NCBI RefSeq assembly: GCF_964204645.1
Contig: NC_134026.1
Span: forward strand, 31,220,150 to 31,284,149
Length of the DNA: 64,000 bases
Source of the DNA: Tubulanus polymorphus
Lineage: Eukaryota; Animalia; Nemertea
Direction: 5' to 3'
Shown: one piece after another, positions 4,060 to 63,500 of the stretch
Position numbering within the stretch: the stretch's first letter is position 1
Layout of the letters: each line of letters opens with the position of its first letter
Notes under the pieces: model-generated
What the model was told of the DNA's origin: nothing
Seen by the model: only the letters and a program-made list of their open reading frames with translations
Database searches by the model: none
Translations under genes and position numbers: made by a program

Positions 4060-4944
4060 TTTATCACGGTTGTTGATTCTAAAAAATATTTAAAAAAAGA
4101 ATTCTATTATCAGCCTCTCAGATTTGTCACAATCAGATGATCTCTACCAATATCTCCCCTCTCTGTCCCCATATATCTTTTCTCCATTATCTAGGGATCA
4201 GTCAGTAACCTGTCTGTGGTTTAGTTTCATGATCGGATATTTTCACATAAGCCCATCTGATTATAAAAAGCTTACCACCAATGATTAGGTAACTAACTAC
4301 TGATGCTGCTGAGGTTACAATACAGGATTCCTTTGCTTTGCTCATATCTAATTGGTTTAATTTGAATTTTGGTGGTATGTATAGTAGCTTTGTTCATCCA
4401 ATAATGTATAAAAATAATAGGGTAGTAGGCCTTAGACTTTGTTTAGTCTACTACTAGCCGTTGGGACAGTGGTAACAACGACTGCTATTCAGACTAGGTA
4501 GTTGGTAGTTTAGTAGTCTGCTGAATACCAGTCGATGTTACGGTTCCCTGTTTCAGGAACAACGGCTAGGTACGTAGTTTAGTAGATTATTTCTGTCAGT
4601 TCCTAGGATGAATAGGTTGAATCTTCGAATTTGGACCCCAGTTAGTTACAGGAAAATCGTGAGACTGTATTAGTGTATCTGACTTTTTTTTGTCTATAAA
4701 ATTATTCAAGTTCACAGTCACAGCAGATTCTTCAATATCTATTGTCCTTAAATTATCAGATTCACCATAAAAATAAACGCAAGTGAAATACAGAACTCGC
4801 AAATCACATTTCTTATAAGAACCCTATCCTAAATTCTAGATATTTACCCGTGAAAATAAAGGAAATTTCCGCGTCAACTCAGCAACTCAATTTATTGAAT
4901 TGAATTTGAAGGGTGCTTACTCAAATCCAGCGGCGAAAACTTGC

Positions 4945-23700: not shown

Positions 23701-26700
23701 AAAATGTGGGTAATTTCCTGAGGAAAAGAGTAAATGTTTGATAATGGTTGGTATTGATTTACGCTTGCTCTCAATTTTAACGAGCCACAATTTCACTTCG
23801 TAATTTACCGAAAACCAGAGATGAAATATTCAGCATATACACATTCTTTACAACGTGGAAACATAAACGACTATTAGTCATTGTGTAAATATTAGTAATT
23901 CATGAATTAATGACTGTAGTAAAAATACATGTTCTAAAACTGATAGAAACCAACCGTGTAAGGGAATATTGAAATAAAACAAGTCATTGAGAATTAGTGA
24001 AGGGTTTCATGATTGATTGAATATTGAAGTATCAATTAATATGCAACTTCACGACTTATAAACAAACACAGGAGACAGAGGTATACAATACATCTACGGG
24101 TATAATAGACTCCGCTCAAGTCTGATCTTTTGACTTGAGAGTGATATCTGAGTTGGACGATACAGTAGACTCCGCTGAAGAGTCTGATCTATTGACTTGA
24201 GAGTGATATCCGAGTTAGATGATACAGTAGACTCCGCTCAAGTCGGATCTTTTGACAAGAGAGTGATATCTGAGTTAGATGGTACAGTAGACTCCGCTCA
24301 AGTTGGATCTTTTTACTTGAGAGTGATATCTGAGTTGGATGGTACAGTAGACTCCGCTCAAGTCTGATCTTTTGACTTGAGAGTGATATCTGAGTTGGAT
24401 GATACAGTAGACTCTGCTCAAGTCGGATCTTTTGACAAGAGAGTGATATCTGAGTTAGATGGTACAGTAGACTCCGCTCAAGTCGGATCTTTTGACAAGA
24501 GAGTGATATCTGAGTTGGATGGTACAGTAGACTCCGCTCAAGTCTGATCTTTTGACTTGAGAGTGATATCTGAGTTGGATGATACAGTAGACTCCGCTCA
24601 AGTCTGATCTTTTGACTTGAGAGTGATATCTGAGTTGGATGGTACAGTAGACTCCGCTCAAGTCTGATCTTTTGACTAGAGAGTGATATCTGAGTTGGAT
24701 GGTACAGTAGACTCCGCTCAAGTCTGATCTTTTGACTAGAGAGTGATATCTGAGTTAGATGGTACAGTAGACTCCGCTCAAGTTGGATCTTTTTACTTGA
24801 GAGTGATATCTGAGTTGGATGGTACAGTAGACTCCGCTCAAGTCTGATCTTTTGACTTGAGAGTGATATCTGAGTTGGATGATACAGTAGACTCCGCTCA
24901 AGTCTGATCTTTTGACTTGAGAGTGATATCTGAGTTGGATGGTACAGTAGACTCCGCTCAAGTCTGATCTTTTGACTTGAGAGTGATATCTGAGTTGCAT
25001 GGTACAGTAGACTCCGCTCAAGTCTGATCTTTTGACTTGAGAGTGATATCTGAGTTGGATGATACAGTAGACTCCGCTCAAGTCTGATCTTTTGACTTGA
25101 GAGTGATATCTGAGTTGGATGATACAGTAGACTCCGCTCAAGTCTGATCTTTTGACTTGAGAGTGATATCTGAGTTGGATGGTACAGTAGACTCCGCTCA
25201 AGTCTGATCTTTTGACTAGAGAGTGATATCTGAGTTAGATGGTACAGTAGACTCGCATAGGGAAAAATATCTTTAGAAATGTCAGAGTTAATCAGTGATT
25301 TCTGATTTGAACAGAGTCTGCTATATTTTCTATTAACCTCACTGAATAGAAATGTGACTTCGCCTAATTCTAGAAAATTGATCTGCTAAACTCTTCCATA
25401 CACAACCTAGGTATCAATCATTTAGAAAACCAATTATAACAAAATATCTGGATAATTTCTCAATAAATCAATCATTGATCTCGTTTGAGGGGCGACACAT
25501 TGAGAGAGAGATCAACAGGTTGAGAATTGATAGAAAATATAACACTATCTGAAAGAATTATCGACTACTTTGTGAGTGGTTTTTCCTGTGAGTGGTTTCA
25601 CCGTGAGTGGTTTCACCATGAGTGTATAGTGTATTCTACCTCAGTCAGATTGATGGCTTTTAATTGATAAATAAACATGAAGCAATAAATGTTGCCGTGG
25701 TCTCGCGCCGGAGACCGAGAGGAGAGCGAAAACTTTATGAGATTCTCCGCAATAGCAAAATACGCCACGCTCCGGCCGGCCGCTGTGTGCTGTTGCCGGT
25801 AGCAACCTACACGGAAAAGTTCATAACAAATATAAATCAGGAAAGAATTAACATATTTTCGTTTGCGTCGAGATTTCTAAACGAGAACTCACTTCAACCT
25901 GTTCATTTTATTCTCTATTCATATTGAGGACGAGTGAAAAATAAAAACAAGTCGCGCTGTATTTGTGCATTCAAGCGTTCAATATATATAAAAAAACATT
26001 CTTTATAAAAGATATTTGAAAAGCGTTGATTTTGTAATTTGACTCTATTTGTGTCGATGTAGAAATAGCTGTTACTTAAATATAAACGCTTATTTAAAGC
26101 GCTTTTATACTTAAATAGTTTTTAGAACTTCAAATAGATTTCGTGGTCCTTCTTTTTGTGACTCAATTTATGAAGGATTGGAAAAACAGTCAAAATTTTG
26201 TTAACCACTTTTCCAGACGATGAATTACACTAAATTTTTAGACCCGTTTTATATAAACTACTGAATTAGAAATATAAATGGAGACTTATGTGACGACTTA
26301 TCCAAATGATGACTTAAATTTGAAATATAAATTTGGACTTATGCGATGACAAAAAGAGAGATGATTTCCGTAATGTGACGACTTATAACAAATATGTAGT
26401 AATTCTATGAACGGAATTTTACTTACTTTTTTCCCGTTTAATTAAACCGTTTCCGAACCCGATTTGAACGTCGTCTATTTCTAGTTTAATCGGGCCGATG
26501 ATATCTCCGTCATCGGTGAGTAGAGATAAAATATAAACCGCTTCCTCGTCGCGTTCAAAAATCAAATCCTCGAAATCATCGAAACTTTCATTCATTTTAC
26601 GAACGTTTTCCGGTTCGAAATTCTTCCAAATTTTTTTCGCTCGTTTTTTCACGAATTTATTCTCTTTTTCGGAGCCTTTATCTTTATTTTCCGAGTCGGA

Positions 26701-27423
26701 CTGACTGTAGCTGCTGCTGCGGCTGTTATAAATCTGATCAGGCGTCGCTGATTTCGGATTTAAATCTGCTTCTTCGTTGAAATTAAACACAATTGATTCG
26801 ACATCTGATTCATTCTCCTCATTATCAATATTACTATCTTTAGAACGATTAATCGCTGAAAGCGCTGATTTTTTAAGTTTAGATTTAGATCTGGTTTGTA
26901 ACGGAGCTCGTAATGAAGAGACCGCCGGAGCTGGTTGCGATTTACGCCTCGATTCGTTCTGATCGGGTTTTAACAGATTTCTAGACGGTATCGTCGTCTT
27001 CCCTCTTTGCACCGTCGACTGTGTCCTCCTTGTCGTCGGTGATTCTGTCCTCCTCGTCGCCGGCGCCGCTGCCGATGTTTCAGTTTGTGTTTCGATATTT
27101 TTAAACGGTTCGTCCTGCGTTTCAGTTTGAACTCCGATATCTTTATCCGGTGATTGAGTTTGAACTTCACGACTCTCGGTGTTCGGTTTTAGAGGTTGTG
27201 TATTAACCATTGATTTCTGTTTATTGATCTCTGGTAAAACGGGAGTGATCCTCGTGTGATCCTCACGAGGATTACTCCTCCTCCCGGAGACCGCCGATAG
27301 AAACGGTCCGTGTTGTACATATTTAACGGGATGTTGAGGTGATGTAGATGTATTCACGTATTGTCCAGTAATCGGTGGTTGTAATTGGTCAGTATTTAAC
27401 GGTTCCTCTGTTTCGACTGGTAC

Positions 27424-27461
<38 letters not shown>

Positions 27462-30400
27462 GAGGTGATGCTGAACCGTTTATTCTAACAGGTCCGTACG
27501 TATATATATTAATACCGTGTTGTTTATCAGTTTTATGTGGTTCACTGACGTGTGACGTTACATCATTACGACTAACACTTCTAAACTCATCTTCATCAAC
27601 TCTCCTATACGGGTAGTGGTCCGAGTGATACCCGTTACGGGCCCGGGCCGGGGTCGTCCCGCGTTTCGTAGTCCCGTATTTCTTCCCTCGTAACACGTAC
27701 TCAGTTCTAGGAATCGGTGATTCATCGGTCGAATCGAAACCGTAATTATCCCTACGAAATTCGCGTTGTTTTTTCGATAGTTTTTTGAGTTGTTTTTTCG
27801 CGCTGAGACTGTCGAGGTATTTCCTACTCGGTAGTCCGTGCGGAGAATAATCCAAATCATCCAGGTCATTATTATTATTATGATGATTATTATTATTACG
27901 TTTAAGTCTGATATTTCTATACGGATTCATTCTCTCGATCTCGCGCCGATACTGATCCAGTAATAAAAGTTCCTGTAATCGATGTTTGAAGTTGTGATAT
28001 GATTGGTTACTGGAGTCAGCGTGCTGCTGCTGTAAACCGTCGTCGTCAGCGGCCGTGGCAGACGGGTTTGTCAGTAACGTTTTAAACCTCGTAGGTGGTG
28101 GATATCGTTCCAGCTCGTCCCAGTATAAATCGTCGGGTGGACTCGTCAGTAATTTATTAGATTGTTTAGCGATACTCGTCGGGTTTAAGACGACCGGTTT
28201 GTTACCGCTGTTAAGCGTGTAATCGCCGTTCCAACCAGTCAAACGTCTTTTACGAGTCAGCGTTTCTTTAAACGTATTGTAACCGATTTCAATGTCTTCA
28301 ATATGATTGAGGTCGTAGCTGTAAGGTTCGAACGATCGAACGAAATATTCCTTATCGACATCTTTTATGAATCCGTTATCAGTAAATAGGTCGCTGTCAT
28401 CGTTTCTGTAAATATCGTCAGTGTTTGCGATATTTCGATGTTTTTTCAGTGGTTCCGTCTGAATCGCTTGATCTGTTTTACTTTGTGCGGCGACTGCTGG
28501 TTTTTTCTTATTTCTTCGTTTCGGTCTGTGAATTTTCGGTTTGATATAAACCTCTTCCTCGACGGGACTCTCATCATCATCATCATCATCATCGTCACTT
28601 CTCCATTGTTTATCTCGATATCTCAAATCGTGATATTTCCCCGTGCGATATCGAGGTATTCTCTCGTATCTATCCTCATCGTTTTCCTCGTCGTCACTCA
28701 GCGAATGATGCTTTGTTCTCCTCTGTTGTGGTTTTACCGGTGGTTTTAGTAAGTTATGTAAATGTTGATCAGTTTGTGGTATAATAACCACTGCGTACGG
28801 CTGTTGTTGTTGTCGCGGTAATAACGACTGTCCTCTGTTGTCTATCACCGGCAGTAAGTTACCGATCGGTATTTGATCGAGGAATGTTTGTTGTTGAGTT
28901 GGAGCAGCAGGTGGCGCTGCTACAGCTGGTTCGGGTATAGCCTGTTCCGGAACAGGAGACGGTACAAGGATTGATCTTCGAGGTCTGATATCTATAGAAG
29001 GTCTAGTTGAACGTATAACGTCTATAGAAGGTCTACTGTGTAACCATCTCGCGCTGGGGTCGCTCATTTTTCTCGAGATGTTGCTCAGTTTTCTCAGCGG
29101 TTCAGGTATTTGATGCGAAGGTCTGCGGATATACCGAGCATCGTCTGGTGCCAGATTCTGAGATGTAGAAGGTCTATTTCTGGGAGTTGAAGGTCGTCTA
29201 TCTCTGACCGGTGGTTCCATTCTAGGTTTATCGTGTCTATCAGTCGGGGTCGGTGTCCGGGATCGTCTACCCAGTATCTGTACCGGTGGATGTTTAGAGT
29301 TGTGGGTTCTATCCGGGGTTCTAGCTCGACTGATCGGCCTCGGTTCGCTGATATAAATAGGACTTCGCGCTCGAGACGGAGCCTTCCTCTTCTTCGGTTT
29401 TTCTCGCTGTTTTGGAATATCCGGCGATCGAGGAGGACTGCTCCTAGACTGTCTCCTCATCGGAGGAGGACTGCTCCTAGATTGTCTCCTCGATGATTCC
29501 GGTTTGAAATACTCGTCGCTGTCCGTTGTTTGATCCGGTGCTTGTTTTCTATACGAGCGAATGAACCTCGACCGATGCGGATCCTCGTGAGGTTGCTCGT
29601 GAGGTTGCGGAGTATTCCTACGACTGATCTCTCTCTGAAACGATACGATCGAATCCTCTCTGTCGAGGTCGGTCGATAGTTCGTTATTGTTGAGTTTAAG
29701 TCGAGGTATCGGAGTCGGTTCTCGACTGACGGGTGACTCCGCGTAACGGGGTGACTCCGCCGCGTAACTACGCTCCGTTTCTAATTCGTGTAATTTCTCG
29801 CGTTTCTGTTGAACTTTCAATCTCAAACTCTTGGCTAGCGCCGGTGAGATCGTCGAGAACTCGTCATCAGACGGATGACGATGTTTCCAGAATCCGTCTG
29901 CGTATTGACTGAGAGCTGATCCCTCTCTACTGTAACGAGGTGTATTCACACCCGACTGATCCGGAGCCGCTAAATTATATTTCTCGCGTATCGTTTTTTT
30001 CCGCGGGGGACTCAAACCTACGACTCCTTGAATTCTATTCCTCGACATTTTTATTCTAGGTACGACATTTTTCGTTTTCTAATTCTAGAATTCGCATTTT
30101 TCGTTTTTTGGTCGGGTCAGGTCGTACGCGAGCAGTTTCTCGATAAACACTCGAAGTCTCGTGAATAAATAATGAAACGATGATGAAATGATGTACGGTT
30201 ATTGAAACGTTGTCGACGGCGATGATGAATCCGTCGTAAAATATCGAAATATCGATAAAAACACGACGAGAGTCGGTTTTATAACGATTAATACTCGGAA
30301 CAAACGAGCACAAAACTCAACTCGATTCACAGAGAATAAATCCTTATAAATAATGTATGAATTAAATCATAAAATACTCATCACTCACGACGGATTGAAA

Positions 30401-34600: not shown

Positions 34601-37330
34601 GTTTGAAAACATCTTCCTGCGACGCTTCACATTCAAACGTTACATTAAATGTGAATGATTTCGTCGATGATTGATTATCAACCTGTTAAAATAGAAAATA
34701 TCCTCACTATTATCGGTACTGGTATCGGTAACAGTACAGGTATTGGTATTGGTATCAGTATTGGTATCAGTATAGGAATCGGTACTGGTATCGGTATCGG
34801 TATCAGTACTCAGGGGCGGATCCACGCTATATTCCACTGTATTGCAGAATATAGTCTGAATATTTTCAAGAAGTACCTAATCTAACAGTTCCAGAATGCC
34901 TTTAAATACAAGGAAAGAGTGATTTTTCAAATTTTTCTCGGGGAAGACCCCAAACCACCCTTTAATGAGCTTCATCGCCGGCATATCATCGAGCAATTAT
35001 TTTGAGGAGTACAGTTAAATTCACCGGCTGGATGCGCCCCTGGTACTGGTATTGGTATTGCCATCAGTACTGGTATTGGTATCGGTAGATAAGGAATCAT
35101 AGTTATCGGTTCATTCTAAATGAGAATCCCTGTAAATAGATGCTGAACCGGTGAGTTTACGATGTTAGGAATAGTTTAGAATGTCACGTACCCAAATGCC
35201 GCCGTCTCCGGGAAACTGAATCACACTTTTATCAGCTCGATTCCGTTCCGCGATATTTAAAGGTCGAACTCTGAAAACAAATAAAGAACAGTAGAATCAG
35301 ATCTCACGAGACCAATGAATATTCCACGCGAGACAGTGAATGAATTCCAGGGGGCGCTCACAGCGCCGTGTCAGGTCAACATCACATCAGATATTTTTTC
35401 ACGTGGCGCGAGTGATAATCAGAGACAATCCGTGGTAAGCAGAGGTCAGGGTCACGAGGAGTCTACCGTTTAAACTCATAGAATGTTTATCCGGAGTTTT
35501 CTTACCTAATAACTACCATCGACGCCATAAATCCAAATTAAAATATCTGCCTAAATATTCCATGATATCTAAGCGTATGCAATGGATATAAGTGAGTGAC
35601 TTTCTGATGTACGACACTCACTCACTGTCTTATAGACAACTCACACTAGTTTCTGATCACGGTTTATTTGTTTATAGTTATGTGACTCTGAGTAAATTAA
35701 CTCCTTTATTTCATACACTTAGATAAATATAGTTCGGGCAGCGACAAGGAGGAGCAGTTTATAATCTATTCCTACAAATAATAGCATTCATTCCTGCACC
35801 GATTAAAATAGTTGAGATATTTGAGTCTGAAATATTCAACCAGGGTTTGTCAATACAGTCAAACCTGTTTCTTGATCTGAATCATTTAGAACTGACTAAA
35901 TTCTCAATTAAACATCATGTTTTACACATAATTTGTGTGTGAACCTAATCAATAAATGGACAGGTGGTTTAATTTGGTTTGAGACCATCTCTTTATAAAA
36001 GCTTACCAGTAAGGCGGATTAACGTGGATTAAACTGATAAGGATTAGGCCGCAGTTAAGGTGGATTAAATAGATTTGACTGTATTTTATATTAGCTTCAC
36101 CGGGGTCATTTTTTCTAACCTGTTGGTGATTGATTTTAATTCTGGAACAATTTTAAATAAAAATCCCTGAAAATGACTAATATACGATTTAGTCAAAACG
36201 TCAAATCAACTTTTAGCTCAAAGGAAATATTTCAGACTCTATTTTCTTTTTAAATGTCAAATTTTATATGATCTTTAAAATACAGACTCAAGAATATTCT
36301 ATCAACGGTAATCTGAAATATTCTAATTAGTTTCTATAACAGGAATAGTAAACACGGCAAAATTCATTACCGTAGTAACCGTGCGCAACAATACAATAAA
36401 TATCGTGTCGCAATAGCGTGTTAACAATTTCATGATTAAAACGTAATTGTTCATGAAGATTTAATCCCATACAATCCTTCTTTTATTGTCAACTCCTACA
36501 ACACGGACGGACTATTAAACTTATTGTATATATATCTACGCGGTGACAACCAGTGAATTCATAATAACGGTTGAAACTATTGGAAACTTACCTAACAACT
36601 ACATTTATATTATCAGTCCCTGAATCATCGGAACCATCAGTGTTATTAGACGTATCTGTAGCGCTCCTGAAACACATAGAAATAAACATAATATTAAAAC
36701 ATATTCCAATGAAATAACAGTGAAACTCGCAGCTGAATCTGTTACTGGTGAATCTTACACTGAATTAGAAATACAAATCAAGACACAAAAATAGAGACGA
36801 TTTTAAAAATGTGACGACTTATTCAAATGAAAACTTATACACTAGTTGGGTCTCAAAAATACAAAATGACTAATATCCGATCCCCGCGACCTGGTGATAT
36901 TTTTTTTTTACCTAGCTATCGTTATTTTTCCAGAATATGAAGGTTTTCTAATTAAAGGTTTTTTCCGAGGAGCTGGTATAGGCTGATCAGTACTACCAGC
37001 ACCAGTAGCACCAGCAATAGCATCGGCACCAGCACCAGTACCAGCACCAGCAGCAGGAATACGACCAGCAGCTACTATTCCATTATTTGTATGACTATCG
37101 GGTTGTGAGCTTCCATTAACAGGTGCTCCAGCTCCAGCTCCAGCTCCTGCTCCAGCTCCTGCTCCAGGTACTGCTCCAGGTCCAGCTGAAGAATTATTAA
37201 CGCTATTTTTCGAATTATTCACAGATTTTTCCAGTTTCGTCGCGTGATTCGTCGTAGATTCAGTTTTTGATTCCGATGATTCCTCTTTTATAGAATTCAT
37301 ACTTCCGCGTTTATCCGAGGAGAATTTCAT
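17731..37330 (-). CDS. KIF12: Kinesin-like protein KIF12 (kinesin-16 type), 19 coding exons, 899 aa
   Basis: Exons 37330-36912, 36666-36592, 35270-35192, 34682-34561, 33950-33875, 32963-32823, 32503-32365, 23327-23169, 22463-22383, 22295-22177, 21639-21535, 21443-21363, 20881-20776, 20381-20168, 19275-19104, 19011-18857, 18422-18115, 18005-17949, 17822-17731 total 2700 nt in frame. P-loop [18 protein letters not shown], switch [28 protein letters not shown]12-typical [13 protein letters not shown] and [16 protein letters not shown]. Confidence 0.93.
18536..18810. repeat. ~20-bp MITE-TIR-derived minisatellite (gtggaactgagtccagaaca)
   Basis: Reverse-orientation relative of the 8137 array; another lies at 20430-20570. 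Confidence 0.88.
19730..19975. repeat. ~51-bp tandem repeat (~5 copies)
   Basis: ctctcagcttggagttcaaatgattactccacgctctcagtagccagtct repeated. Confidence 0.9.
21060..21240 (+). mobile_element. Degenerate tRNA-head/CORE-like SINE remnant
   Basis: gacactcattgcctctctccacccaggagcaattgaggggtacc resembles the conserved central block of invertebrate CORE-type SINEs (recalled, not searched). Confidence 0.35.
21716..22160. repeat. MITE with its left ~41 bp tandemly amplified (~9 copies)
   Basis: ggatccagttccacatttgagttaagagttgactcagaactct units followed by the body and right end of the 59087-type element. Confidence 0.85.
22620..22790. repeat. ~19-bp minisatellite (gatatttctagatatttac)
   Basis: Directly visible. 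Confidence 0.9.
22960..23160. repeat. ~41-bp tandem repeat just after a kinesin splice donor
   Basis: ggaattggacgcagaacagcgggtctgggctcgtgaactgt units. Confidence 0.88.
24106..25253. repeat. 60-bp tandem repeat, ~19 copies
   Basis: agactccgctcaagtctgatcttttgacttgagagtgatatctgagttggatggtacagt; copies align in register with the 60-nt lines. Confidence 0.97.
26419..30048 (-). CDS. Intronless 1209-aa uncharacterised, largely disordered R/S/P-rich protein nested in KIF12 intron 7 (same strand)
   Basis: 3630-nt non-repetitive ORF in AT-rich DNA, GC-richer than its flanks. In-frame TAG shortly upstream of the ATG. Short hydrophobic C-terminal module [29 protein letters not shown]. Confidence 0.88.
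30409..30876. repeat. 24-bp tandem repeat, ~19 copies
   Basis: acacgacttatagcagtccgagat; ~360 bp upstream of the nested ORF's ATG. Confidence 0.97.
33104..33610. repeat. ~33-bp GC-rich tandem repeat, ~15 copies
   Basis: aaccagggagaggtgtccatacctcccccgggtta. Confidence 0.95.
33632..33889. repeat. 37-bp tandem repeat (7 copies) containing the end of kinesin exon 5 and its splice donor
   Basis: Minus-strand unit GGACCACCTCAACTA|GTGAGATTATAGGGATCCCCGG; the true donor copy reads gtaag. Confidence 0.93.
34340..34535. repeat. 21-bp GC-rich tandem repeat
   Basis: gagctctcacctccccggrga units. Confidence 0.9.
34811..35042. mobile_element. Small TIR element (CAGGGGCGGATCCA...TGGATGCGCCCCTG) inserted in a hexamer (ggtatY) microsatellite
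   Basis: 14-bp TIR with 1 mismatch; the microsatellite continues on both sides (34713-34810, 35043-35085). Confidence 0.7.
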
Positions 37331-44295: not shown

Positions 44296-45918
44296 TTATA
44301 ACTGATAGATCTATATACAGTTGAACCTCATTACAACGAACTTCAGGAGACCAGAAAATCTGTTCGTTATAACCGATAGATCTATATACAGTTGAACCTT
44401 GTTACAACGAACACAGGAAATCCGTTCGTTATTATGATTCATACAGTTTGAAATTACTGAAATTGTCCTGTTTGGGATGAAATTCGAGGTCCCTATACTC
44501 GACCAAGGTCGTTATAACAAGGATTCCTTGTACATTGTAGTAAGTATATCATGTGTATGTATGAAATATAATGAGTGGAGACATCTCGACAGGTTCCCGC
44601 TGAAAACGTACATTCCAGTTACTACCGCGATCATTACACACAAACATTAATTAAAATATAAAAATCCTACAATTATAAATTGATATAGAAATCATTTTAT
44701 TCTAGTCAAACGAACCGACGAAGGACCCGAAATATTTCTGTATTTTCAATCGATTTTTTGATCAATGAAATCTTCATTCATAATTGTAGAACTTTTACAT
44801 GACATTTTAAATCACGGATATCACGTGATGATTACGAGTAATAATATATTCTATAAACAGAAAATAATCATTTAAATCTATTCATAAAACACATTCTAAA
44901 ACGTAATTAAAAACTCGTATTCTAACGCAGTGTAATTAGCTACAATTAGATGAGTAGCTTTTGACATCAAAAATACCTTGGCAGAAATAGATTCGTTCTG
45001 GTGCTAAAACATCTACACTGCATTCACTTCGTGACTTGTATCGATCGAGTTGAGTTCTTGCGTTCCAAAATATAGATTATTCGAATACCAGCGGAGTAAG
45101 ATGAGTAAATATACGTATAGCTTTTGAATGTCATCGGTGTTATGATGTAAGCTGGAATTAACCGAACCTTCTCATTACTGAGCTGAACCCACAGGCTAAA
45201 GAATCATTGAACTCGGCGGCACGTGCGCGCATACGACAGACCCCGAGTACTCGGTATCGATCACAGTTCGTATTCGAAGTACAATTTATGTTCTAGAAAA
45301 GACAATAATATTTTAGTAGAAATTCGTATAATGGACATCCGTTCAAATCGTCAGGTGAAATTAAAGCCTTAAAAAAACATTTCAACAAAAACAAATAAAT
45401 AATTACAAATTAAAACCAACTCAGAAAAAATCGGTAACCGACTCGAAGTCTTTTAGAGTTTCGTAAGAAAATATCACAAATTATGATTATATTTCGCCCT
45501 TCCAGAACTGATTAAAATTAAATCTCTTTTTTGGTCGAATTCCGTTTGATTAAACTCATAGATCCCGAGTCGAATAAACTCTTTGTTACAATCAGATTCC
45601 TGAACTCAGTTTTACAGCTGTGAGAAACAGTTAACTCTTGAGTCAAAATCATTTCATTTTTTAACTCCAACTCAGGACTGTGGGACCAAGTTTCATAGTT
45701 GTGAGTTCAGTATGAGATTAATTCACCTCCAATGTTTAAACTCTGAGTGAACTCGCAACTGTGGAACTGGATCCAGTTCTGCAATTGTGAATAAAGTTTT
45801 AAATTAGTTCATTTCAGAATCTGAAGCCCGAATTCTAACCCGGCACGTCACTGACTGTGTAATCGCGTGCTGGAATTCTACGAGTTGAAATGATTAATGT
45901 TTTCTGTAGTAAGTGAAA

Positions 45919-47010
45919 TTAAGGCCAGTCGATATAAGTTCCTGTCATTTCGAAGAATCTTTCGTTGTGGGGTCGGAAGAAATTGTTAAGTTTTTCCATC
46001 ACTTCAGGATGAACTCGGGGATGTTTGCGCCCTTTCCCCGTGCCCAAACAATGGTCCTGTCCTTCGTTACGCATACAATAAAATCCTTTCGTTTCGTTAA
46101 AGTAGAAATTCTCTCTCGTAATTCTATGCGCCAATCCGAGAAACTTCTCTACGCGTTTTATCTGCGGAATCGGGTTCCGAATGAGTTCGTCACCGTCGAC
46201 GATCAGAACCTGACTGGCTGGAAATATCTCCAACCATCGCTCCATGTGACGATGATAGATACTAGTCCTGATAGCTTTTAAATGTAGATTCACCTTCCCA
46301 GTCACCTGATCGATGGCTAATTGCTCAAAACTTTGATGACTTTTATTTCTGGCGAGTTTATTATAGTGAATTTGAGTGTAGTCGCTGATCGTTCGAACTG
46401 TCGGGTTACGGACGATCAATAGCAGTTTGATACTACTGTTCATGGCGTATATCCTCTGCGGCACCTCCTCCGTGATGAAATAAGCCGGACTCTTTTCGAT
46501 GGTTACCTGGTGCGGGAAAGAATACGGCATCCGTTTGCGATACCAATCCAAACCGTATTTATAATTGTCATCGTTATCGAAAAAATGAATTTCCTCCATG
46601 GCTGCGTTCACATCCGGGTGTAAGTTCAAAAATTCCAACAATGCGCGCGTTCCGCATTTTCGAACGCCGATAACAATGCATTGCGGTAACCGTCGCTTAG
46701 TACCGCGAATATGCAAATTAGTCGGCTGCTGTTTCGTGTGATCGGATTTAGACGAGTGTTTTAGCGAATTTTGATCGGAACTAAGGCAGAGGAATGGTTG
46801 ACCTAAAATACTGGCGTACATGAGTCGAGCGAATATTGATAGAATGATAAAAAAGCAAATGGCCGCTATGACGATTAGTCCACTTCGTCCGCATTTCCGT
46901 TTGACGATAGGCGGCGCTCTAAAATCCACATCCACCAGGCTGTCGTCTGAGGCGGTCAATGCGCGGTGTTTCTGTTTTTGATTTAACAGCGGGGCTTTGG
47001 CCACAGTCAT
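45919..47010 (-). CDS. HS3ST5: Heparan sulfate glucosamine 3-O-sulfotransferase (HS3ST1/HS3ST5-like), type II membrane protein, single coding exon
   Basis: TM segment LIVIAAICFFIILSIFA; 5'-PSB motif IIGVRKCGTRALL-type (IVIGVRKCGTRALLEFL); EEIHFFD, EKSPAYF, RNPTVRTISDY, KGFYC...CLGTGKGRKHP. Acceptor tttacag at 47019 implies a 5'-UTR intron. The exact paralog label is uncertain. Confidence 0.93.
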   Translation of the reverse strand: MTVAKAPLLNQKQKHRALTASDDSLVDVDFRAPPIVKRKCGRSGLIVIAAICFFIILSIFARLMYASILGQPFLCLSSDQNSLKHSSKSDHTKQQPTNLHIRGTKRRLPQCIVIGVRKCGTRALLEFLNLHPDVNAAMEEIHFFDNDDNYKYGLDWYRKRMPYSFPHQVTIEKSPAYFITEEVPQRIYAMNSSIKLLLIVRNPTVRTISDYTQIHYNKLARNKSHQSFEQLAIDQVTGKVNLHLKAIRTSIYHRHMERWLEIFPASQVLIVDGDELIRNPIPQIKRVEKFLGLAHRITRENFYFNETKGFYCMRNEGQDHCLGTGKGRKHPRVHPEVMEKLNNFFRPHNERFFEMTGTYIDWP

Positions 47011-47536
47011 TTTTCAATCTGTAAATATATGGAAATAGAATAGATTTAATCATATAGTTAGTTAGTAATGCAGTTGCTGTGGCTCAAAATGGTCAAACAC
47101 GTTTTAGTTATAACAACTGGTAGTTCATGATGCAAATAAAACCATTGAACGCGCGGAGAGGGAGATGGAGAGAGTTGTGTCTCATTCCCGACATAGTGAA
47201 ACGACGAAAAGCGATGAAATCAGAAGAAATCAATTACATGAAATGAAATCTGCGACGTCTCTGTCTGATTCACTTTACGGGGTACAAACATATCGAGTGA
47301 AGGACCCTATATGTTTTCATTGTTACCCGACAGAGAGAAAGACGATTAAAACACAATTGATTTTCATTCGCTTAATTTTAACAGTGTACATTAATTAGAT
47401 TTAATGCGTAAACAGTTTAACAACAGTTTCTCGGCAACTTCAACATCGGCGGGATTTTAACCATTGATGAAACATTCCGAGTCCGTGTTGTATTGAAATC
47501 CCTACACACTGAGAATGAAAACAGTTTGAAATGTTT

Positions 47537-47942
47537 CCTTGAGCTAGTGTAGTTTATTCAACGTTTTGACTTTATCCTAATGTCATCTTCAGGAATACTG
47601 TATTCCTTGAGCTAGTGTAGTTTATTCAACGTTTTGACTTTATCCTAATAGTCATCTTCAGGAATACTGTATTCCTTGAGCTAGTGTAGTTTATTCAATG
47701 TTTCGACTTTATCCTAATAGTCATCTTCAGGAATACTGTATTCCTTGAGCTAGTGTAGTTTATTCAACGTTTCGACTATATCCTAATAGTCATCTTCATG
47801 AATACTGTATTCCTTGAGCTAGTGTAGTTTATTCAACGTTTAGACTTAATCCTAATAGTCATCTTCGGGAATACTGTATTCCTTGAGCTAGTGTAGTTTA
47901 TTCAACGTTTCGACTTTATTCTAATAGTCATCTTCAGGAATA
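47537..47942 (-). repeat. 6 x 69-bp tandem array of minimal hammerhead-ribozyme units (Penelope-like pLTR derived)
   Basis: Unit starts at 47537, 47605, 47674, 47743, 47812, 47881. Minus-strand consensus TATTC-CTGAAGA-T-GACT-ATTAGGATAA-AGTC-GAAA-CG-TT-GAATA-AACTACACTAGCTCAAGGAATACAG. Confidence 0.85.
47899..47942 (-). ncRNA. Intact minimal type I hammerhead ribozyme motif
   Basis: Stem I UAUUC/GAAUA, core CUGAAGA plus an extra U, stem II GACU/AGUC, GAAA, palindromic AACGUU in place of stem III, cleavage triplet GUU. Confidence 0.7.
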
Positions 47943-49391
47943 ATTTTGTAACCTGTAATTCCTGAACCTACGATACAAGATCCCTTCACGTTGAGAATAA
48001 AAAGAGTCGGAAATGTTTATGAACTTATAGTACAGATCATCCTTATAGTTGTGTTCGGGAATATTTGTGTTATAAAAACATATGAGATAAACATGTGTAG
48101 TTCAGAACGATGAGACAAATCTAAACGATATGATTTGAAACAAACTATAGGGGTCGGTCATATACAACATAAAAACACCAGTATTCCCGAAGAGACTTTA
48201 CATAGAATAAACTATCAGTGCCTAAGGAAACTTTTTAGACTTTATCTAAGCACGCAGGGATTTTATATTATCCTGATACCATTCATTCCATTCGATCGAA
48301 CTGTAGCGGCGGCAGCAGCAGCGGCAGCAGCAGCGGCGGCAGCAGCAGCAGCAGCAGCAGTACGAGAGAGGGAGAGATTGAAACCACTGTTACTGCTCAC
48401 TAAAGACAGTTACAGCTGTTTCAGTAATTGACCAGGTGCGCAATAAAGCGATTAACAAACCAGTATTCATTATCTATCCATCTAACTTGAGATGAGTCGG
48501 TGCCTATACACGCGTGAGCGCAATAACTTTTATACAACCTTTATAAACTAACTGTGTACAACATCTTATCCTGTTACACATGATCCGATATCTCCCGTAA
48601 CCATTTCACTGCGTAAGTCAACTCGCCCCGACCATGTGATAGATATAGGATAGATTCTGTCGATAGTAAAATGGTCAGTTGACAACAAATCCACTATACA
48701 CAAATTTAGAAATTTAAAAGCGATTTTTTTAATTAAATAAAAAAATTCAAAATGGAGAAGACAAATCAGGACTCGTATCTATCATCGTCATTTAGAGATC
48801 ATCGTCAGGTGTAAATAATGAATCTGAAGTTTGAATAATGAATAAATCTTACTTGTAAATATTTTAATTCGTACATAGCGGGTTTCACTCATATATACAT
48901 TCTAATCTCGACGCTTGATCTGTTCTCCTAGTTCTCGTAGTTCTAATGGTCAGTATTGTACCTTATTCTAAGTAATAGTATATGCGCAAATCTGTAGTGA
49001 TGTTGGGTGTTCTGTTTACATTACAAGTAATCAGTGTCACAAACAGACAAACAGACGACTGAGTCCAGATGTAAAGTCAAAACATGAGACAAAAGTGTCA
49101 GTTAGTAGTGCTTACAACAGTATTGACCACGTGGTGTGCGCGCTGCCGGTGTGCGCCTGTCGGTATGGGGGGTGCTTGTGTCAGAGATCGTTAGAAACGA
49201 TGCCCGCCGGGTATCATCATCCATAGAATCATCCAGATCTCAATCTGTGTGAATCCAATCAATAAAACAGTGAAATCTTTAAAAGATTTCGTCATTTATG
49301 AAATGTTTACTCAACCTCAGTGAACATAACATCTGCCTAATAAATACATCCAGAATTATAAGATTCATGAACCATGAAACCACAACGTTTC

Positions 49392-49488
49392 GATCCCCAC
49401 CCAGATAGAATGGATCCCCACCCAGACAGAATGGATCCCCACCCAGACAGAATGGATCCCCACCCAGACAGAATGGATCCCCACCCAG
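49392..49488. repeat. 21-bp tandem repeat x~4.5
   Basis: gatccccacccagacagaatg. Confidence 0.9.
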
Positions 49489-50143
49489 AGATGCATCTCC
49501 TCGACGAAATAATCTAATTAATAGACGCTGCACCTGTGACCAGCGAGTTGAAAGAAATGCCAGATTTATGATATATCCACCTTTTTAAAATGCTTTATTT
49601 GCGGAAATTGTCTGAGATTTCGTTTCTTCTCTAAATTAGCGGAAAGCATTAACACAAAAAACAACTGTTTCCGAGTAATTAGTTTTCATGGCTTATTAAC
49701 TTTCTTGTTTTTTCCGGACCATTAACGATAATTATGAGAACTGCACATCAGCACTAATCTGTAGTCTATAGCGGTGTTTGTGTCAACACTTCACAGGCGA
49801 CTGATTCTCCATCGCTCGCAGATGTCTGCCGTCTTCCTGCGCCCGCGCGCGCCCTACACACAACAGTTACTGTAGGAAATTTGACACGATGTTTATAGGC
49901 CACTAAATATACAGGAAAGATCGGCATAAACAACTGTCCGTGATTGGTGAGAAAATAGTTTCAGTTTGTATTCCATTTCTATTTACGTAAAAAAGGGTCA
50001 AAACGATTATTTACATATCAGTATTATATACAAAACTCTTATATTTTCCTCACCGACACAACAACATTTTTGGCCAGTATACGCCCGATGATTGTGGCTA
50101 ATAGTATTTAGCCGAAACGCTGCTCGTAATATATATCATTTTG

Positions 50144-50313
50144 ATAATAAGATAAAAACCCACTATCTACAAATTAAAAGAATTTAACACACCAGACGAT
50201 GATCTCTAGGGTGAGATCCAAACGTCGTGTATTCTATATATTTTAGATTGAATAAATAAATTCTTGTTTTTAAATTCTTTTAATGTGTAGATAGTGGGTT
50301 TTTATCTTATTAT
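50144..50313. repeat. Inverted repeat (~43-bp arms) enclosing a degenerate hammerhead-like motif
   Basis: ataataagataaaaacccactatctac...gtagatagtgggtttttatcttattat; the loop contains cagacga-t-gatctc-tagggt-gagatc-caaacgtc. Confidence 0.75.
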
Positions 50314-54376: not shown

Positions 54377-56283
54377 TATCACTGGTTTTGATATGTTGTT
54401 ATTCATCTAAACGAACAGAACATTCACCAATAAATATTCGATTAGAGAAAGAATTTTCTATAAATCACTGATTGTTTACATTACACAGATAAACATATAT
54501 AATTATATACGTCATCAGATAATTGTCAAGACTTGATGATGATGATTTGTTTATACGGTTATGCATGTTCGTGGATACTTTGTTTGAATGTAGTGTAGAT
54601 ACACTCTGTGGTAGGCCTACATATCTGATGATACATTGTATCATTAGGTGTATTTTTGTAGTTTTGGTTTGGATACTCATGTATTGATGATAAAAGGACT
54701 AAAAGGAATCAGAAATGTTTCCTCTAGCCGATAATTATTTATCATCTTGACTCAATCCTAATAGTCTTTTTCATCTTCGGGATATAAGCTGGAGGAATAC
54801 TTTGAAATATTCCAAATCAAACACCATATTTTTCTTTCATATAAAATCCCACACTAGAAATAAAAGAGTCAGAAATGTTTCCATGAGCTAAATGAAATGA
54901 GCTAAAAGTTTATTCGACGTTTCAACAGTGTCTTCTAAGGGCAGGTTATCAGGGAAAAAGGCGAATACCTCGGGGCCGTTTTGTGCCCGTTTTTTAATAG
55001 TGCTAAGTGACCCTTAATAGTCACGTGTCCATCTCCAGATCTGCCCGGATTTCTAAAACCTTTAACACGCTAATACGTGATCAATGTGACTATGTTAGTA
55101 AAGATAGGGCTAAAAGATCGCGGCCTTTAAGTAGTAATTTTGTACAAATTGATGTAAAATTAGCGAGAAGAAAGGTATTCCCCTTGTGAGTCATGAGACG
55201 GTACCGCCGACAATACAGCAGAGAAATTAGTGAACCCCGCACCTTCATAGCAATCTCCTGTCAAGACACAATGGACTAGCGATTATCAGACCGTAGAAAC
55301 CCATCTTATAAGCAGATGACTCATTTAAACATATTGGCACTTAGGATCCAATTAGATCACAGTGCATGGATGACATCCCTCACCGGTCGCCAATCAAATT
55401 TCCACAATTATGAAATTACTAAAACTCATATCAGACGCGAAATTGTCGCCTAGATACAATTTCACCTGGTGACCATCAGTCAACTAATATGCGTGACGTA
55501 GTACCTTATTCAGCCAATCAGAGGACACGGTATGAAAAGACCCATGAATCTGACTGTTCGGTTAGAGAATGCTTTTACCCATATTCAGAGATTCGAAATT
55601 CCAATTGAATATTTTACACACAAGATGAGTTTAGAATATGAACATGGCCTGCATCGTTTAATTCTTAAATGAATATCTTGAGGACCAGAATATATTCGAA
55701 CTGTTTCATTTTTTTTTGGGGGGGGGGGGGGGATAATACTCCGTGAACCCCCAAGGTCAACCACCGTATTTCATGATTTAGAGTGAAACCTTTAGATTGG
55801 ATAGATCCCCGCCTGCCCTATACGTGTCTGAAGTCAGAAACAAAAGCCCATAAAACAAACAAAACTACACTTAAAGATGCCTCGAATTCTAAGAGGCTAC
55901 GGTAGGATTTTATCTCATAAAATCTCATAGAGAAATAATAGAACTCAAGGCCGTATAACCCACCCCACAAATAAATTACAGTTTTAGCATAACCTGTGGG
56001 AAGGTCTATAGAAACTAATCTAGAAATCTTCAATAAATCAGTAAACAACAGAACCACTCATATCTGAAGCACCCCCTAGCACCCGGTCAATGTGAACCAC
56101 CCTAGATTCCAGGTAAAATACTTGTTTGTGATAATAACAACAACTGAATACAATGTGTATATCCTACAATATAAAATACAATGTATTGGTACAGGATAGA
56201 TACAAGTAATATTTCTAAACAATTCTAGAATGTGTAAGAGCCGTAGAAATAGAGATAATGGTTTCTATCGATTAGCTACGGAT

Positions 56284-58545: not shown

Positions 58546-58887
58546 GGCTGAAGCGATAATAGCGAGCATGAGCATTTAGCCTTCATCATCTCGACTCACG
58601 TTCTGCAGACGCGAAGAAAATTCTACCAAATTGCTGTTATTTCAAAACACTTTTGCTTTTACGGTAGAAATTGCCTCGATTGACTGTCAGTCGGTGTGGG
58701 TAACGCACTGGTGAGACCTTATCGTCAACTCCGTGACGAATCGGTAAAACACAGGACAGATAGTACTGTATACTTTGTAAAACTTGTCAGGGCGAGATTT
58801 AAAAACTACATTAAGTACTTCGTGTTTACTGATCTACACAACTCCTTCATTACCCAACCCTGACAATTTACTCTTCAATTATATAAC

Positions 58888-59086
58888 CATTGATGAAACA
58901 TTCTGAGTCCGGCATTTAAAGTTCCTGCTCACTTAAACATGAAAAGAGTCCGAAATGTTTCCTTGAGCTAGTGTAGTTTATTCAACGTTTCCACTATATC
59001 CTAATAGTCATCTTCAGGAATACTGTATTCCTTGAGCTAGTGTAGTTTATTCAACGTTTCGACTTTATCCTAATAGTCATCTTCAG
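58888..59086 (-). mobile_element. Second locus of the hammerhead-bearing Penelope-like repeat (2 x 69-bp units plus shared flank)
   Basis: Same unit as 47537 and same flank ccattgatgaaacattc.gagtcc (47461 vs 58888); the second unit is interrupted in stem I by a MITE. Confidence 0.8.
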
Positions 59087-59194
59087 GACCCAGTTCCACA
59101 GTTGTGAGTTAGAGTTAACTCTGAGTTAAAGTTAGTTCATTTTCAATGTTTTAACCCAGGGTCAAATCTTAACTCAGAACTGTGGAACTGGACC
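59087..59194. mobile_element. 108-bp MITE, TIR G(A/G)(C/T)CCAGTTCCACAGTT, CAG TSD
   Basis: tctt-cag|gacccagttccacag...ctgtggaactggacc|cag-gaatac; removing the element and one CAG restores the unit sequence tcttcaggaatac. Confidence 0.88.
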
Positions 59195-59889
59195 CAGGAA
59201 TACAGGTCTATGATAGGATATAGTCGAATTATCTTCAGGAATACTAGTGTTGTCCTCATTAACCATTGATACCAATATTCCTGAAGATGATCCTCAAAAA
59301 CATCAAATAGATAAAAGCTTTGAAACGTCGGTTCAAGAAAACATTTCAGACTTTTTATGCCCAATGTTGAGGGAATTCATATATTATATGTATTCGTCCT
59401 TCAGTTCTTGTGACTTCGTAATTTTGGAAACCAAGTAAAAACTTTAGCTGCAGGCTTTATCTGATAATCCATCGTCACCAGTAGAACAAGGCGGCAGCCG
59501 ATAATTTACTGGTCGTCGAAGTGTAATAATGAAATCATGTAAGGCGTCTTGTATCATGATTAAAACAAATTGAAGTAGAATATCATTGTTTCCTGAGTTC
59601 ATTCAGACGAACTGATAAAACTAATGTTTTCATCAGCTGCGATCTTATACAGCTTCTAAAATCTAATTATTACACTCTATATCAACATCTAATCCTTTAA
59701 ACATCATTAAATAATGATCATGTGACAGTTTTTAGATACCGCTCTCTAAGAGTAAAAGAGTCAGAAATGCTTCAATAAAGCATTTGACAACAACCAAACC
59801 TGACAACCGGTAACCAGTCACCACACTGACTGGTTACCGGTCACCGCACTGACCAGACAAACTTACCAACTCTGTCAATCACTACCGAT

Positions 59890-62088: not shown

Positions 62089-63500
62089 GGGTCCAGTTGT
62101 ACAATTGTGACTTAAGTCCAAGATTTGTGTTTATTCTGTAACTGATCTTAAGTTGTTAGATTGGCTATAGAACCAAAATGAGCTTAGACTGGTCTCAAGT
62201 TGTTAGATTGGCTATAGAACCAAAATGATCTGAGACTGGTCTTAAGTTGTTAGATTGGTTATAGAACCAAAATGAGTTTAGACTGGTCTTAATTTGTTAG
62301 ATTGGTTATAGAACTAAAATGAGCTTAAACTGGTCTTAAGTTGTTAGATTGGTTATAGAACCAAAATGACTTTAGACTGGTCTTAAGTTATTAGATTGTT
62401 TATAGAACCAAAATGGGCTTAGACTGGTCTTAAGTTGTTAGATTGATTATAGAAATAAAATGAGTTTAGACTGGTTGTCTTTAAGCCATGACTGTGCGAA
62501 TGGGTGCTGTACCACCACCAGTGACCGCTCCTCACAATCACCCTTGAACTTTCACAATCACCCCACGTCCATGACCGATACCGACCACAGGAAAGTTACA
62601 GTAAAATCATCGGCAATTTTTATTCACATTGAATAAATGCGAAAGTTATCGACATATTGACATTGATTTCTGTCGTGTGTGAAAGTTTGTTTCTACCTTA
62701 AGGGCCTCTGGTAGTGTTTTACTTGTAAATATTGTCAAACTTTATATCGATGGAAATATTGATTTGAAGGATGTTTCGAATTACTCGATGGAAGAGATGT
62801 GGTAATCAGGATCGCGAGTTATTTGAACTGTGTATAGAAGAAGCACTTTATATCACTTGATAGAAGAAAGAAGTTTATACCGCCTGAGCGCTTGATTATG
62901 TTACCAGTACCCGGTAGATGATGATGTAATATTGGCTTTATTTACCGGCATTTCTGGTAATAAAATTAGGTAACCTTTGATTGATTATAAACCAAGCGTT
63001 CATACAATAATGCATATTCCACAGATTGAAAGATGCTTCTTCAAACTCATATATAAAACTGGTGATCAGTTGGGAAGTAAAGAGAATAACAAAACCGAAA
63101 TCTTTCCTTGAGTTTATTCGACGTTTCGACTTCATCCTATGAGCTTATTTTTGTTCTATAACCAATCTAAGAACTTAAGACCAGTCTAAAGCCATTTTGG
63201 TTCTATAACCTAACAACTTGAAGACCAGTCTAAACTCATTTTGGTTCTATAACCAATCTAATAACTTAAGACCAGTCTAAACTCATTCTAGTTCTATAAC
63301 CAATCTAACAACTTAAGAGCAGTCCAAGCTCATTTTGGTTCTATAACCAATCTATCAACTTAAGACCAGTCTAAACTCATTTTGGTTCTATAACCAAAGA
63401 CCAGTCTATGCTTATTTTAGTTCTATAACCAAACTAACAACTTGAAGACCAGTCTTGCAAGACGACTTCTGGACTTGAGTCATGACTGTGCAACCAAACC
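62089..63500. repeat. Two ~47-bp tandem arrays (62145-62475 and 63150-63455) of one MITE-internal unit, in opposite orientation
   Basis: cttaagttgttagattggttatagaaccaaaatgagtttagactggt versus its reverse complement. Confidence 0.85.

What the first reader, a model, noticed from the sequence alone, without database searches (positions are those of the whole stretch)
47537..47942. Tandem array of six minimal hammerhead ribozymes, sense to the HS3ST pre-mRNA
Seen: each 69-bp unit reads on the minus strand UAUUC-CUGAAGA-U-GACU-loop-AGUC-GAAA-CG-UU-GAAUA. That gives both catalytic boxes, 5-bp stem I, 4-6-bp stem II and a palindromic AACGUU instead of stem III, overlapping an AAUAAA. Established: minimal type I hammerheads with a palindromic, loop-less stem III occur in Penelope-like retroelements and cleave as dimers, which tandem copies allow. 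Inference: this satellite is an amplified ribozyme that could release unit-length or circular RNAs. It lies 520-920 nt upstream of the HS3ST acceptor on the same strand, so it would be in the pre-mRNA if the intron extends that far.
Basis: partly seen in the sequence, partly recalled or inferred. Interest (0 to 1): 0.85.

Follow-up and report, generated by a model that had tools for sequence, protein, structure and literature searches.

The report
Decayed Penelope-type hammerhead repeat array
The repeat is one copy of a common genomic parasite that carries the known tiny self-cutting RNA motif of Penelope-type jumping genes; five of its six ribozyme copies have a changed core letter, so it is most likely a decaying relic rather than a regulator of the neighbouring gene.

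Summary
The array is real (69 bp x 5.9, minus strand) and its unit matches the published minimal type I hammerhead of Penelope-like elements (PLEs). But only copy 1 of 6 has an intact core; the others carry U4C+G12U, C3A, G16.2A, G12A and G12A. Genomic reads of the same species show about 1,300 copies of the motif, whose majority core is intact, and about 390 identical 69-bp joints. So this is a dispersed family, not a locus-specific satellite. A second array 11 kb away has the same joint and the same ~80-nt tail ending at the same point. Inverted relics lie 5' of both arrays. These are PLE-type insertion marks. The spacer is antisense to helix I and C3-U4 and is predicted to block folding, and a 69-nt circle folds no better than shuffles. 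No RT/GIY-YIG gene, RNA data or HS3ST 5' exon was available, so cleavage, expression and intron status are untested. Verdict: new family of a known kind (PLE min-HHR / non-LTR-retrozyme-type repeat), decayed at this locus. The scan has noted similar arrays in several other genomes.

The parts
47535..47942 (-). 69-bp tandem array, 5.9 copies, each a minimal type I hammerhead (44 nt) plus a 25-nt spacer beginning within AAUAAA
47899..47942 (-). Copy 1: the only hammerhead with an intact core; predicted cut between 47904 (U17) and 47903
47830..47873 (-). Copy 2: U4C (47867) and G12U (47842)
47761..47804 (-). Copy 3: C3A (47799); 6-bp helix II as in the family majority
   Evidence: 3983 of 4355 X5 reads at this place carry the intact C3
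47692..47735 (-). Copy 4: catalytic boxes intact, G16.2A (47699) breaks the helix III palindrome
47623..47666 (-). Copy 5: G12A (47635)
47555..47597 (-). Copy 6: G12A (47567) and a 1-nt deletion at helix II
   Evidence: 494 of 700 X5 reads at this place carry intact G12
47454..47534 (-). Family tail with a fixed end; 78% identical to the tail of the second array, last 20 nt identical; elsewhere in the genome it runs on through a short linker into the next hammerhead (about 158-nt unit)
   Evidence: (joints to 47454)
47943..48063 (-). Older, degenerate unit of the same family (broken hammerhead plus tail) directly 5' of copy 1
   Evidence: 83 of 146 columns identical
48176..48260 (+). Inverted degenerate relic of the same family, head-to-head with the array
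   Evidence: 57 of 101 columns identical
58884..59088 (-). Second array of the family: 1.9 units plus the same tail; its 3' copy has C11.1G, its 5' copy is split by a MITE
59087..59194 (.). 108-bp MITE-like insertion with CTG duplicated on both sides, inserted at C3-U4-G5 and cutting helix I off the core
59200..59385 (.). Scrambled and inverted family pieces 5' of the second array, including a plus-strand relic at 59273-59385 and a tail-linker-hammerhead junction at about 59270-59230
36163..36256 (+). Degenerate single copy with tail ending at the same point
54700..54940 (-). Two degenerate copies
63095..63139 (-). Truncated copy (3' half of the hammerhead, C17 variant)
45919..47010 (-). Single-exon ORF of an HS3ST1/5-like heparan sulfate 3-O-sulfotransferase; acceptor-like AG at 47020-47019

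Best explanation
The array is one insertion of an abundant non-coding repeat family that carries the minimal hammerhead motif of Penelope-like retrotransposons and was likely copied by a Penelope-type reverse transcriptase; five of its six cores are changed, so it is probably inert here. Shown: the motif, the core changes, the family's high copy number, its intact majority core, the two unit lengths (about 158 and 69 nt), the shared tail end and the inverted 5' relics. Inferred: (1) the parent is a ~158-nt pseudo-LTR-like unit (hammerhead, AAUAAA, tail, linker); (2) loss of most of the tail between short similar motifs made a 69-nt sub-unit that was already in the mobile template; (3) reverse transcription started at a fixed point in the tail, not at the ribozyme cut, and ran through a variable number of units; (4) after insertion the copies decayed neutrally, mainly at CpG sites, perhaps with some DNA-level copy gain; (5) the spacer's antisense 8-mer further disfavours the double-hammerhead fold.
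For: Unit has all four traits of the PLE min-HHR consensus in PMC4209133. X5 depth is about 10,000 on the hammerhead against a single-copy median of 7.5, i.e. about 1,300 copies. 2,924 reads show the 69-nt joint, i.e. about 390 joints, against 6 in the window. At least 224 reads show a tail-linker-hammerhead joint (table 5c). Three window copies (47.5k, 58.9k, 36.2k) end their tails at the same point within a few bases. Opposite-strand joints at the hammerhead 5' end appear in reads, and inverted relics lie 5' of both arrays, as described for PLE insertions (PMC8557442). Depth falls right after helix I/AAUAAA and a subfamily with other flanks shares only the hammerhead (2,085 and 1,577 loose-end reads). 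The CpG positions C11.1, G12, C15.2 and G16.2 show 5.0-7.5% transitions, while no substitution at C3, G5, A6, G8, A9, G10.1, A13, A14, A15.1 or U16.1 is among the 40 listed rows (lowest listed share 1.8%). Ribozyme-dead PLE RNA still inserts in vitro and RT starts internally (PMC11167929).
Against: No RT or GIY-YIG gene was tied to the family: no genome is held, 0 of 68 ORFs from 40.3-64 kb hit such a family, and the one metagenome locus has a solo motif with no long ORF. No target-site duplication was identified. Nearest-neighbour folding penalises any active hammerhead: blocking the spacer 8-mer removes only 0.2-3.2 of 7.8-17.4 kcal/mol. Copy 1 (and weakly copy 4) could still act as enzyme on a neighbour's intact GUU strand. 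One search shows only 40 of 81 variant rows, alignment favours conserved copies, and X5 is a different sample from the assembly.
Confidence: 0.75

Rival explanations
1. Active micro-retrozyme: intact 69-nt multimers elsewhere in the genome are transcribed, cleave as double hammerheads into 69-nt monomers, circularise and are copied by rolling-circle reverse transcription; this locus is an ageing offspring.
For: The 69-nt joint is common genome-wide (about 390). The majority core is intact. The double-hammerhead pairing of neighbours is topologically possible (nested structure). The unit is 95% identical between the two arrays while the tails are 78% identical.
Against: Both arrays end in an ~80-nt tail that a 69-nt circle cannot supply. 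Circular 69-mers fold no better than shuffles (z -0.82 and -1.34), unlike the highly self-paired 170-400 nt circles in PMC7229834. The inhibitory hairpin is transcribed before helix I can close. PLE min-HHR dimers cleave poorly and 8 of 9 Xenopus dimers did not cleave.
Confidence: 0.1
2. Purely local minisatellite: one single-hammerhead insertion expanded by slippage or unequal crossover at this locus only.
For: Spacers are identical in all copies and copies 5 and 6 share G12A, which fits some DNA-level duplication.
Against: The same 69-nt joint is in the second array and in 2,924 reads. Both helix II variants (A or U opposite A10.5) occur in both arrays.
Confidence: 0.08
3. Host-relevant element: the array lies in the HS3ST 5' UTR intron and affects the transcript, by cleavage through copy 1 or by its six AAUAAA signals, and the host has been selecting inactivating changes.
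For: Same strand, 516-923 nt from the acceptor. The only strong donor-like site within 6 kb lies upstream of the array (48852). No other coding gene was detected upstream. Changes among the six copies are enriched in the core: 6 of 96 core sites against 4 of 313 others, p = 0.013.
Against: The enrichment is lost when the 3 CpG transitions are set aside (p = 0.36), and two of them may be one event. Intronic position is ordinary for such repeats (about 44% in X. tropicalis). Family copies occur on both strands all over the window.
Confidence: 0.06

Closest known systems
Minimal type I hammerheads (min-HHR) of metazoan Penelope-like elements (Cervera and de la Pena 2014, PMC4209133; parts 1-2 of 4 read). 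Luense et al. 2016 seen only as a citation and through a review passage
   Same: Both core boxes, extra nucleotide between 9 and 10.1, G10.1-C11.1, loop-less palindromic 15.2-16.2, short helix I; thousands of dispersed, mostly orphan copies; nearby opposite-strand pairs.
   Different: Here in a 69-nt head-to-tail array; helix II is 4 bp in most local copies and 6 bp in the family majority, against 7-8 bp in Schistosoma; no PLE ORF shown.
Animal non-LTR retrozymes, operational definition (Li, Clavereau and Pollet 2026, bioRxiv 10.64898/2026.07.22.740005; parts 1-3 of 5 read)
   Same: Tandem repeat with a canonical or minimal type I HHR per unit; unit length within the reported 51-972 bp; at most 7 units as in 75% of families; proposed pLTR origin.
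   Different: This locus fails their 'active' rule (two consecutive complete HHRs); invertebrate-type host outside their main sample; carries a non-repeated tail.
Coral, mussel and axolotl retrozymes that make circRNAs (Cervera and de la Pena 2020, PMC7229834; part 2 and passages read)
   Same: Dispersed tandem repeats with type I HHR, low GC.
   Different: Those have canonical HHRs with loop 1-loop 2 contacts and 170-400 nt highly self-paired circles; this unit is 69 nt, minimal and weakly folded.
PAc Poseidon element (Frangieh et al. 2024, PMC11167929; passages and section 3 part 2 read)
   Same: Insertions end at a fixed point roughly 110-130 nt past the start of hammerhead helix II (here about 128 nt from A9 to the shared end).
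   Different: PAc has an ORF starting at helix II; here the AUG at the same place meets a stop within 6-10 codons.

Membership tests
PLE-type minimal hammerhead (PMC4209133) | CUGANGA and GAAA boxes, A15.1-U16.1, H17 | tested here: met
   Copy 1 and the read majority; changed in 5 of 6 local copies
PLE-type minimal hammerhead (PMC4209133) | One extra nucleotide between 9 and 10.1; G10.1-C11.1 pair | tested here: met
   6 of 6 copies
PLE-type minimal hammerhead (PMC4209133) | Palindromic 15.2-16.2 without loop 3; helix I of 4-6 bp | tested here: met
   5 of 6 copies keep CG; helix I 5-6 bp
PLE-type minimal hammerhead (PMC4209133) | Compensatory changes in the helices | tested here: inconclusive
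   6 two-sided changes in 13 pairs, all from one row that was itself found by a pairing descriptor; no within-family covariation could be read
PLE-type minimal hammerhead (PMC4209133) | Self-cleavage as a dimer | not testable with these tools
   Needs in vitro assay
Penelope-like element pseudo-LTR or derivative | Same sequence flanks an RT plus GIY-YIG ORF | not testable with these tools
   No genome held; none in the 68 ORFs scanned
Penelope-like element pseudo-LTR or derivative | Fixed 3' end with tail, variable 5' end, partial tandems, inverted 5' copy | tested here: met
   3 window copies share the end; inverted relics at both arrays; opposite-strand joints in reads. Small n
Non-LTR retrozyme, operational (Li et al. 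2026) | [quoted passage not shown] | tested here: not met
   Only copy 1 is complete at this locus; other loci of the family could not be read whole
Non-LTR retrozyme, operational (Li et al. 2026) | HHR MFE below -5 kcal/mol; unit 51-972 bp; dispersed family | tested here: met
   -5.4 kcal/mol for copy 1; 69 bp; about 390 joints
circRNA-forming retrozyme (PMC7229834) | 170-400 nt, highly self-paired circle, canonical HHR with loop 1-2 contact | tested here: not met
   69 nt; circular fold z -0.82 and -1.34; no loop 1 architecture seen in the 69-nt unit
circRNA-forming retrozyme (PMC7229834) | Unit-length linear and circular RNA in vivo | not testable with these tools
   No raw RNA reads were offered

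The most novel reading that the evidence does not exclude
The 69-nt form is a still-mobile, ribozyme-silenced micro-element: a Penelope-hijacking repeat that spread to hundreds of joints after gaining an antisense 8-mer that shuts its own hammerhead, or else a 69-nt self-cleaving circle far below the size of tested retrozymes. Either would give a natural test of whether hammerhead cleavage matters for Penelope-type mobility.
Probability: 0.15. Interest if true: 0.55.

Novelty: new member of a known kind. Interest (0 to 1): 0.22.

Why it matters
As it stands it adds one more family to a class already described in print and seen repeatedly in this scan. The useful point is comparative: the genome holds the same hammerhead in about 158-nt, 69-nt and other-flank forms, and the 69-nt form carries a built-in antisense block. 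With an assembly and a cleavage assay this would test whether ribozyme activity is needed for spread by Penelope-type enzymes, which is open (PMC11167929 found it dispensable in vitro). An effect on HS3ST would matter more, but nothing here supports it beyond position.

Tried and rejected
Rfam search: no hammerhead model matched; taken as a limit of the models for a loop-less helix III (my inference), not as evidence against the motif. Own genome: none held. Sequencing runs: no RNA holder listed. Contigs of X6 and X7 gave 0 matches on 45500-49500; X8 and X9 (kind not on record) gave 13 and 3 matching contigs on copy 1. None of this bears on expression. X1 contig depths were not used for copy number. 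Pattern scans: 3 metagenome hits that are one locus in three assemblies, solo motif, no RT-like ORF by eye; 0 in viral contigs and 0 in prokaryote genomes. Pfam on 68 of the 73 ORFs listed (5 overlapping the HS3ST ORF left out; only ORFs of 55 aa or more, from 40.3 kb on, passing a complexity filter): no RT or GIY-YIG, two weak below-cutoff hits on a low-complexity stretch. The 20 ORFs of 150 aa or more in the whole window were judged by eye only, except HS3ST. Luense et al. 2016 could not be read. Supplements of the papers (min-HHR alignments, Xenopus family tables) were not seen and may hold a closer match or the shortest described units. Rejected: chance motif; six active ribozymes; selection against the core as shown (p = 0.36 without CpG changes); the very low computed probability of the dimer fold as proof of inactivity (mostly a model penalty). 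Sequence look-up among earlier findings returned one unrelated note; none for this genome.

Full report
Observation. TRF reports 47535-47942, period 69, 5.9 copies, 95% matches, and a second array with the same period at 58959-59088. On the minus strand copy 1 (47942-47899) has helix I (5-6 bp), C3-A9 = CUGAAGA, an extra U, helix II, G12-A15.1 = GAAA, C15.2-G16.2, U16.1 and U17; the 3' strand of helix I runs into AAUAAA. A strict descriptor finds 1 hit in the window and 1 in 9.6 Mb of dinucleotide shuffles. A relaxed one finds 6 sites in the window (five array copies and one unrelated relic) against 1 in 12 shuffles. Rfam has no match. These positions belong to the core consensus (PMC7151607, passages), and G12A is used as an inactivating change (PMC13481778, passages). 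That U17 is the weakest allowed cleavage base is recalled, not from a call.

Neighbour gene. The ORF at 47010-45919 is an HS3ST1/5-like sulfotransferase with an acceptor-like AG nine bases before the AUG. A rough donor scan found no strong site between array and acceptor and one at 48852. No coding family was found in 68 ORFs between 40.3 and 64 kb. An intronic position is possible but not shown.

A dispersed family. Genomic reads of the same species (X5, about 12% of the run read) give a median single-copy depth of 7.5 (19 bins, range 3.7-14.2) and about 10,000 on the hammerhead when laid on copy 1, i.e. roughly 1,300 copies. 2,924 reads show the 69-nt joint, about 390 joints without correction for read overlap. 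At least 224 reads show the tail joined through a short linker to the next hammerhead, a unit of about 158 nt; the window holds the same junction near 59250. Depth falls just past helix I/AAUAAA, and a subfamily with different flanks shares only the hammerhead. The majority of reads restore the local defects: intact C3 in 3983 of 4355 reads and intact G12 in 494 of 700. 75% carry the base that extends helix II to 6 bp. Among 40 listed variant rows of 81, the CpG positions of the core change in 5.0-7.5% of reads, U4 in 3.1%, U17 to C in 11.2%; the other core positions have no listed change (lowest listed share 1.8%). Spacer positions change at about 2%, so this shows an intact master and CpG-type decay, not selection on the copies.

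Insertion anatomy. Both arrays have the form n x 69 plus a tail of about 80 nt. Units are 95% identical between arrays, tails 78%, and the last 20 tail bases are identical. A degenerate copy at 36.2 kb ends at the same point. The end lies about 128 nt past A9 of the last hammerhead and about 14 nt before where the next hammerhead would start; it is not the ribozyme cut site. 5' of array 1 lie an older same-strand unit (48063-47943) and an inverted relic (48176-48260); 5' of array 2 lie scrambled and inverted pieces. Reads show opposite-strand joints at the hammerhead's 5' edge. 5' truncation, partial tandems, an inverted 5' copy and a tail are the described PLE marks (PMC8557442, passages), and PLE reverse transcription starts inside the RNA and does not need ribozyme cleavage in vitro (PMC11167929). 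No RT/GIY-YIG partner could be sought genome-wide, so mobilisation by a PLE is inferred.

Can it cut? A double hammerhead between neighbours is topologically possible. In it one copy's core cuts the other's GUU strand, so copy 1 could act on copies 2, 3, 5 or 6, and copy 4 weakly. Against this, the spacer ends in AGGAAUAC, antisense to helix I and C3-U4. The joint hairpin alone is -5.4 kcal/mol and is predicted at 0.99-1.0 in 4 of 5 joints of the whole-array RNA, with helix I at 0.01 or less in 5 of 6 copies. The control tempers this: blocking the 8-mer lowers the penalty on the active fold by only 0.2-3.2 of 7.8-17.4 kcal/mol, so most of the penalty is the model's. Circular 69-mers fold like shuffles. 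In print, PLE min-HHR dimers and trimers cleave weakly and 8 of 9 Xenopus dimers not at all. Changes among the six copies are enriched in the core (6 of 96 against 4 of 313 sites, p = 0.013) but not once CpG transitions are removed (p = 0.36).

Comparison. The unit is a member of the PLE min-HHR class by every sequence trait that could be tested. A solo motif of the same build occurs in an unrelated metagenome locus (the pattern forced the core). Tandem arrays of such motifs are described as non-LTR retrozymes derived from pseudo-LTRs, with units from 51 bp and about 44% of X. tropicalis copies in introns. This locus fails that paper's 'active' rule and the size and structure traits of circRNA-forming retrozymes. 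Five paper searches were answered; none was aimed at this species, so I make no claim that the family is unpublished. Earlier notes of this scan describe several similar arrays in other genomes; they are unchecked and not counted as evidence.

Verdict. Observation partly confirmed; interpretation partly supported. New family of a known kind, decayed at this locus; interest 0.22. The open point worth a test is whether the 69-nt form spread with its ribozyme silenced.

Noticed in passing
window 50188-50231 (+), with a 5' fragment near 48815-48795 (-): Relic of a second, unrelated minimal hammerhead family (4-bp helix I, 6-bp helix II, C17) with two core changes.
   Followed up: partly
window about 50083-50122 (+): Third hammerhead-like relic (GAUGA box, short hairpin, GAAACG), degenerate; seen by eye.
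   Followed up: no
window 59087-59194, with related pieces at 8.1-8.5k, 13.2-13.4k, 18.5-18.8k, 20.4-20.6k, 21.7-22.2k, 23.0k, 43.9k, 45.6-45.8k: Abundant MITE-like element with CCAGTTCCACAG-type inverted ends and a CTG duplication at 59.1k (Harbinger-like by recall). Its ends seed many 20-, 41- and 44-bp minisatellites in the window.
   Followed up: partly
run X5 on window 47874-47950: A subfamily of roughly 200-280 copies shares the hammerhead but has other flanks on both sides; the loose-end consensus hints at a 5-bp distal extension of helix I. 11% of reads have C17 (GUC site).
   Followed up: no
L001:4999-5040 (+); same locus in L002 and L003: Solo minimal hammerhead of the same build followed by AAUAAA in a eukaryote-like metagenome contig.
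   Followed up: partly
window 2917-4089 (-), 22912-23376 (-), 26419-30078 (-): Long ORFs: CWC25-like splicing factor and a kinesin motor exon (both named by eye, from recall) and a 1,219-aa low-complexity ORF of unknown kind.
   Followed up: no
whole window: Very high density of unrelated minisatellites (127 TRF rows, periods 18-130 bp), so tandem expansion of short sequences is common in this genome.
   Followed up: no
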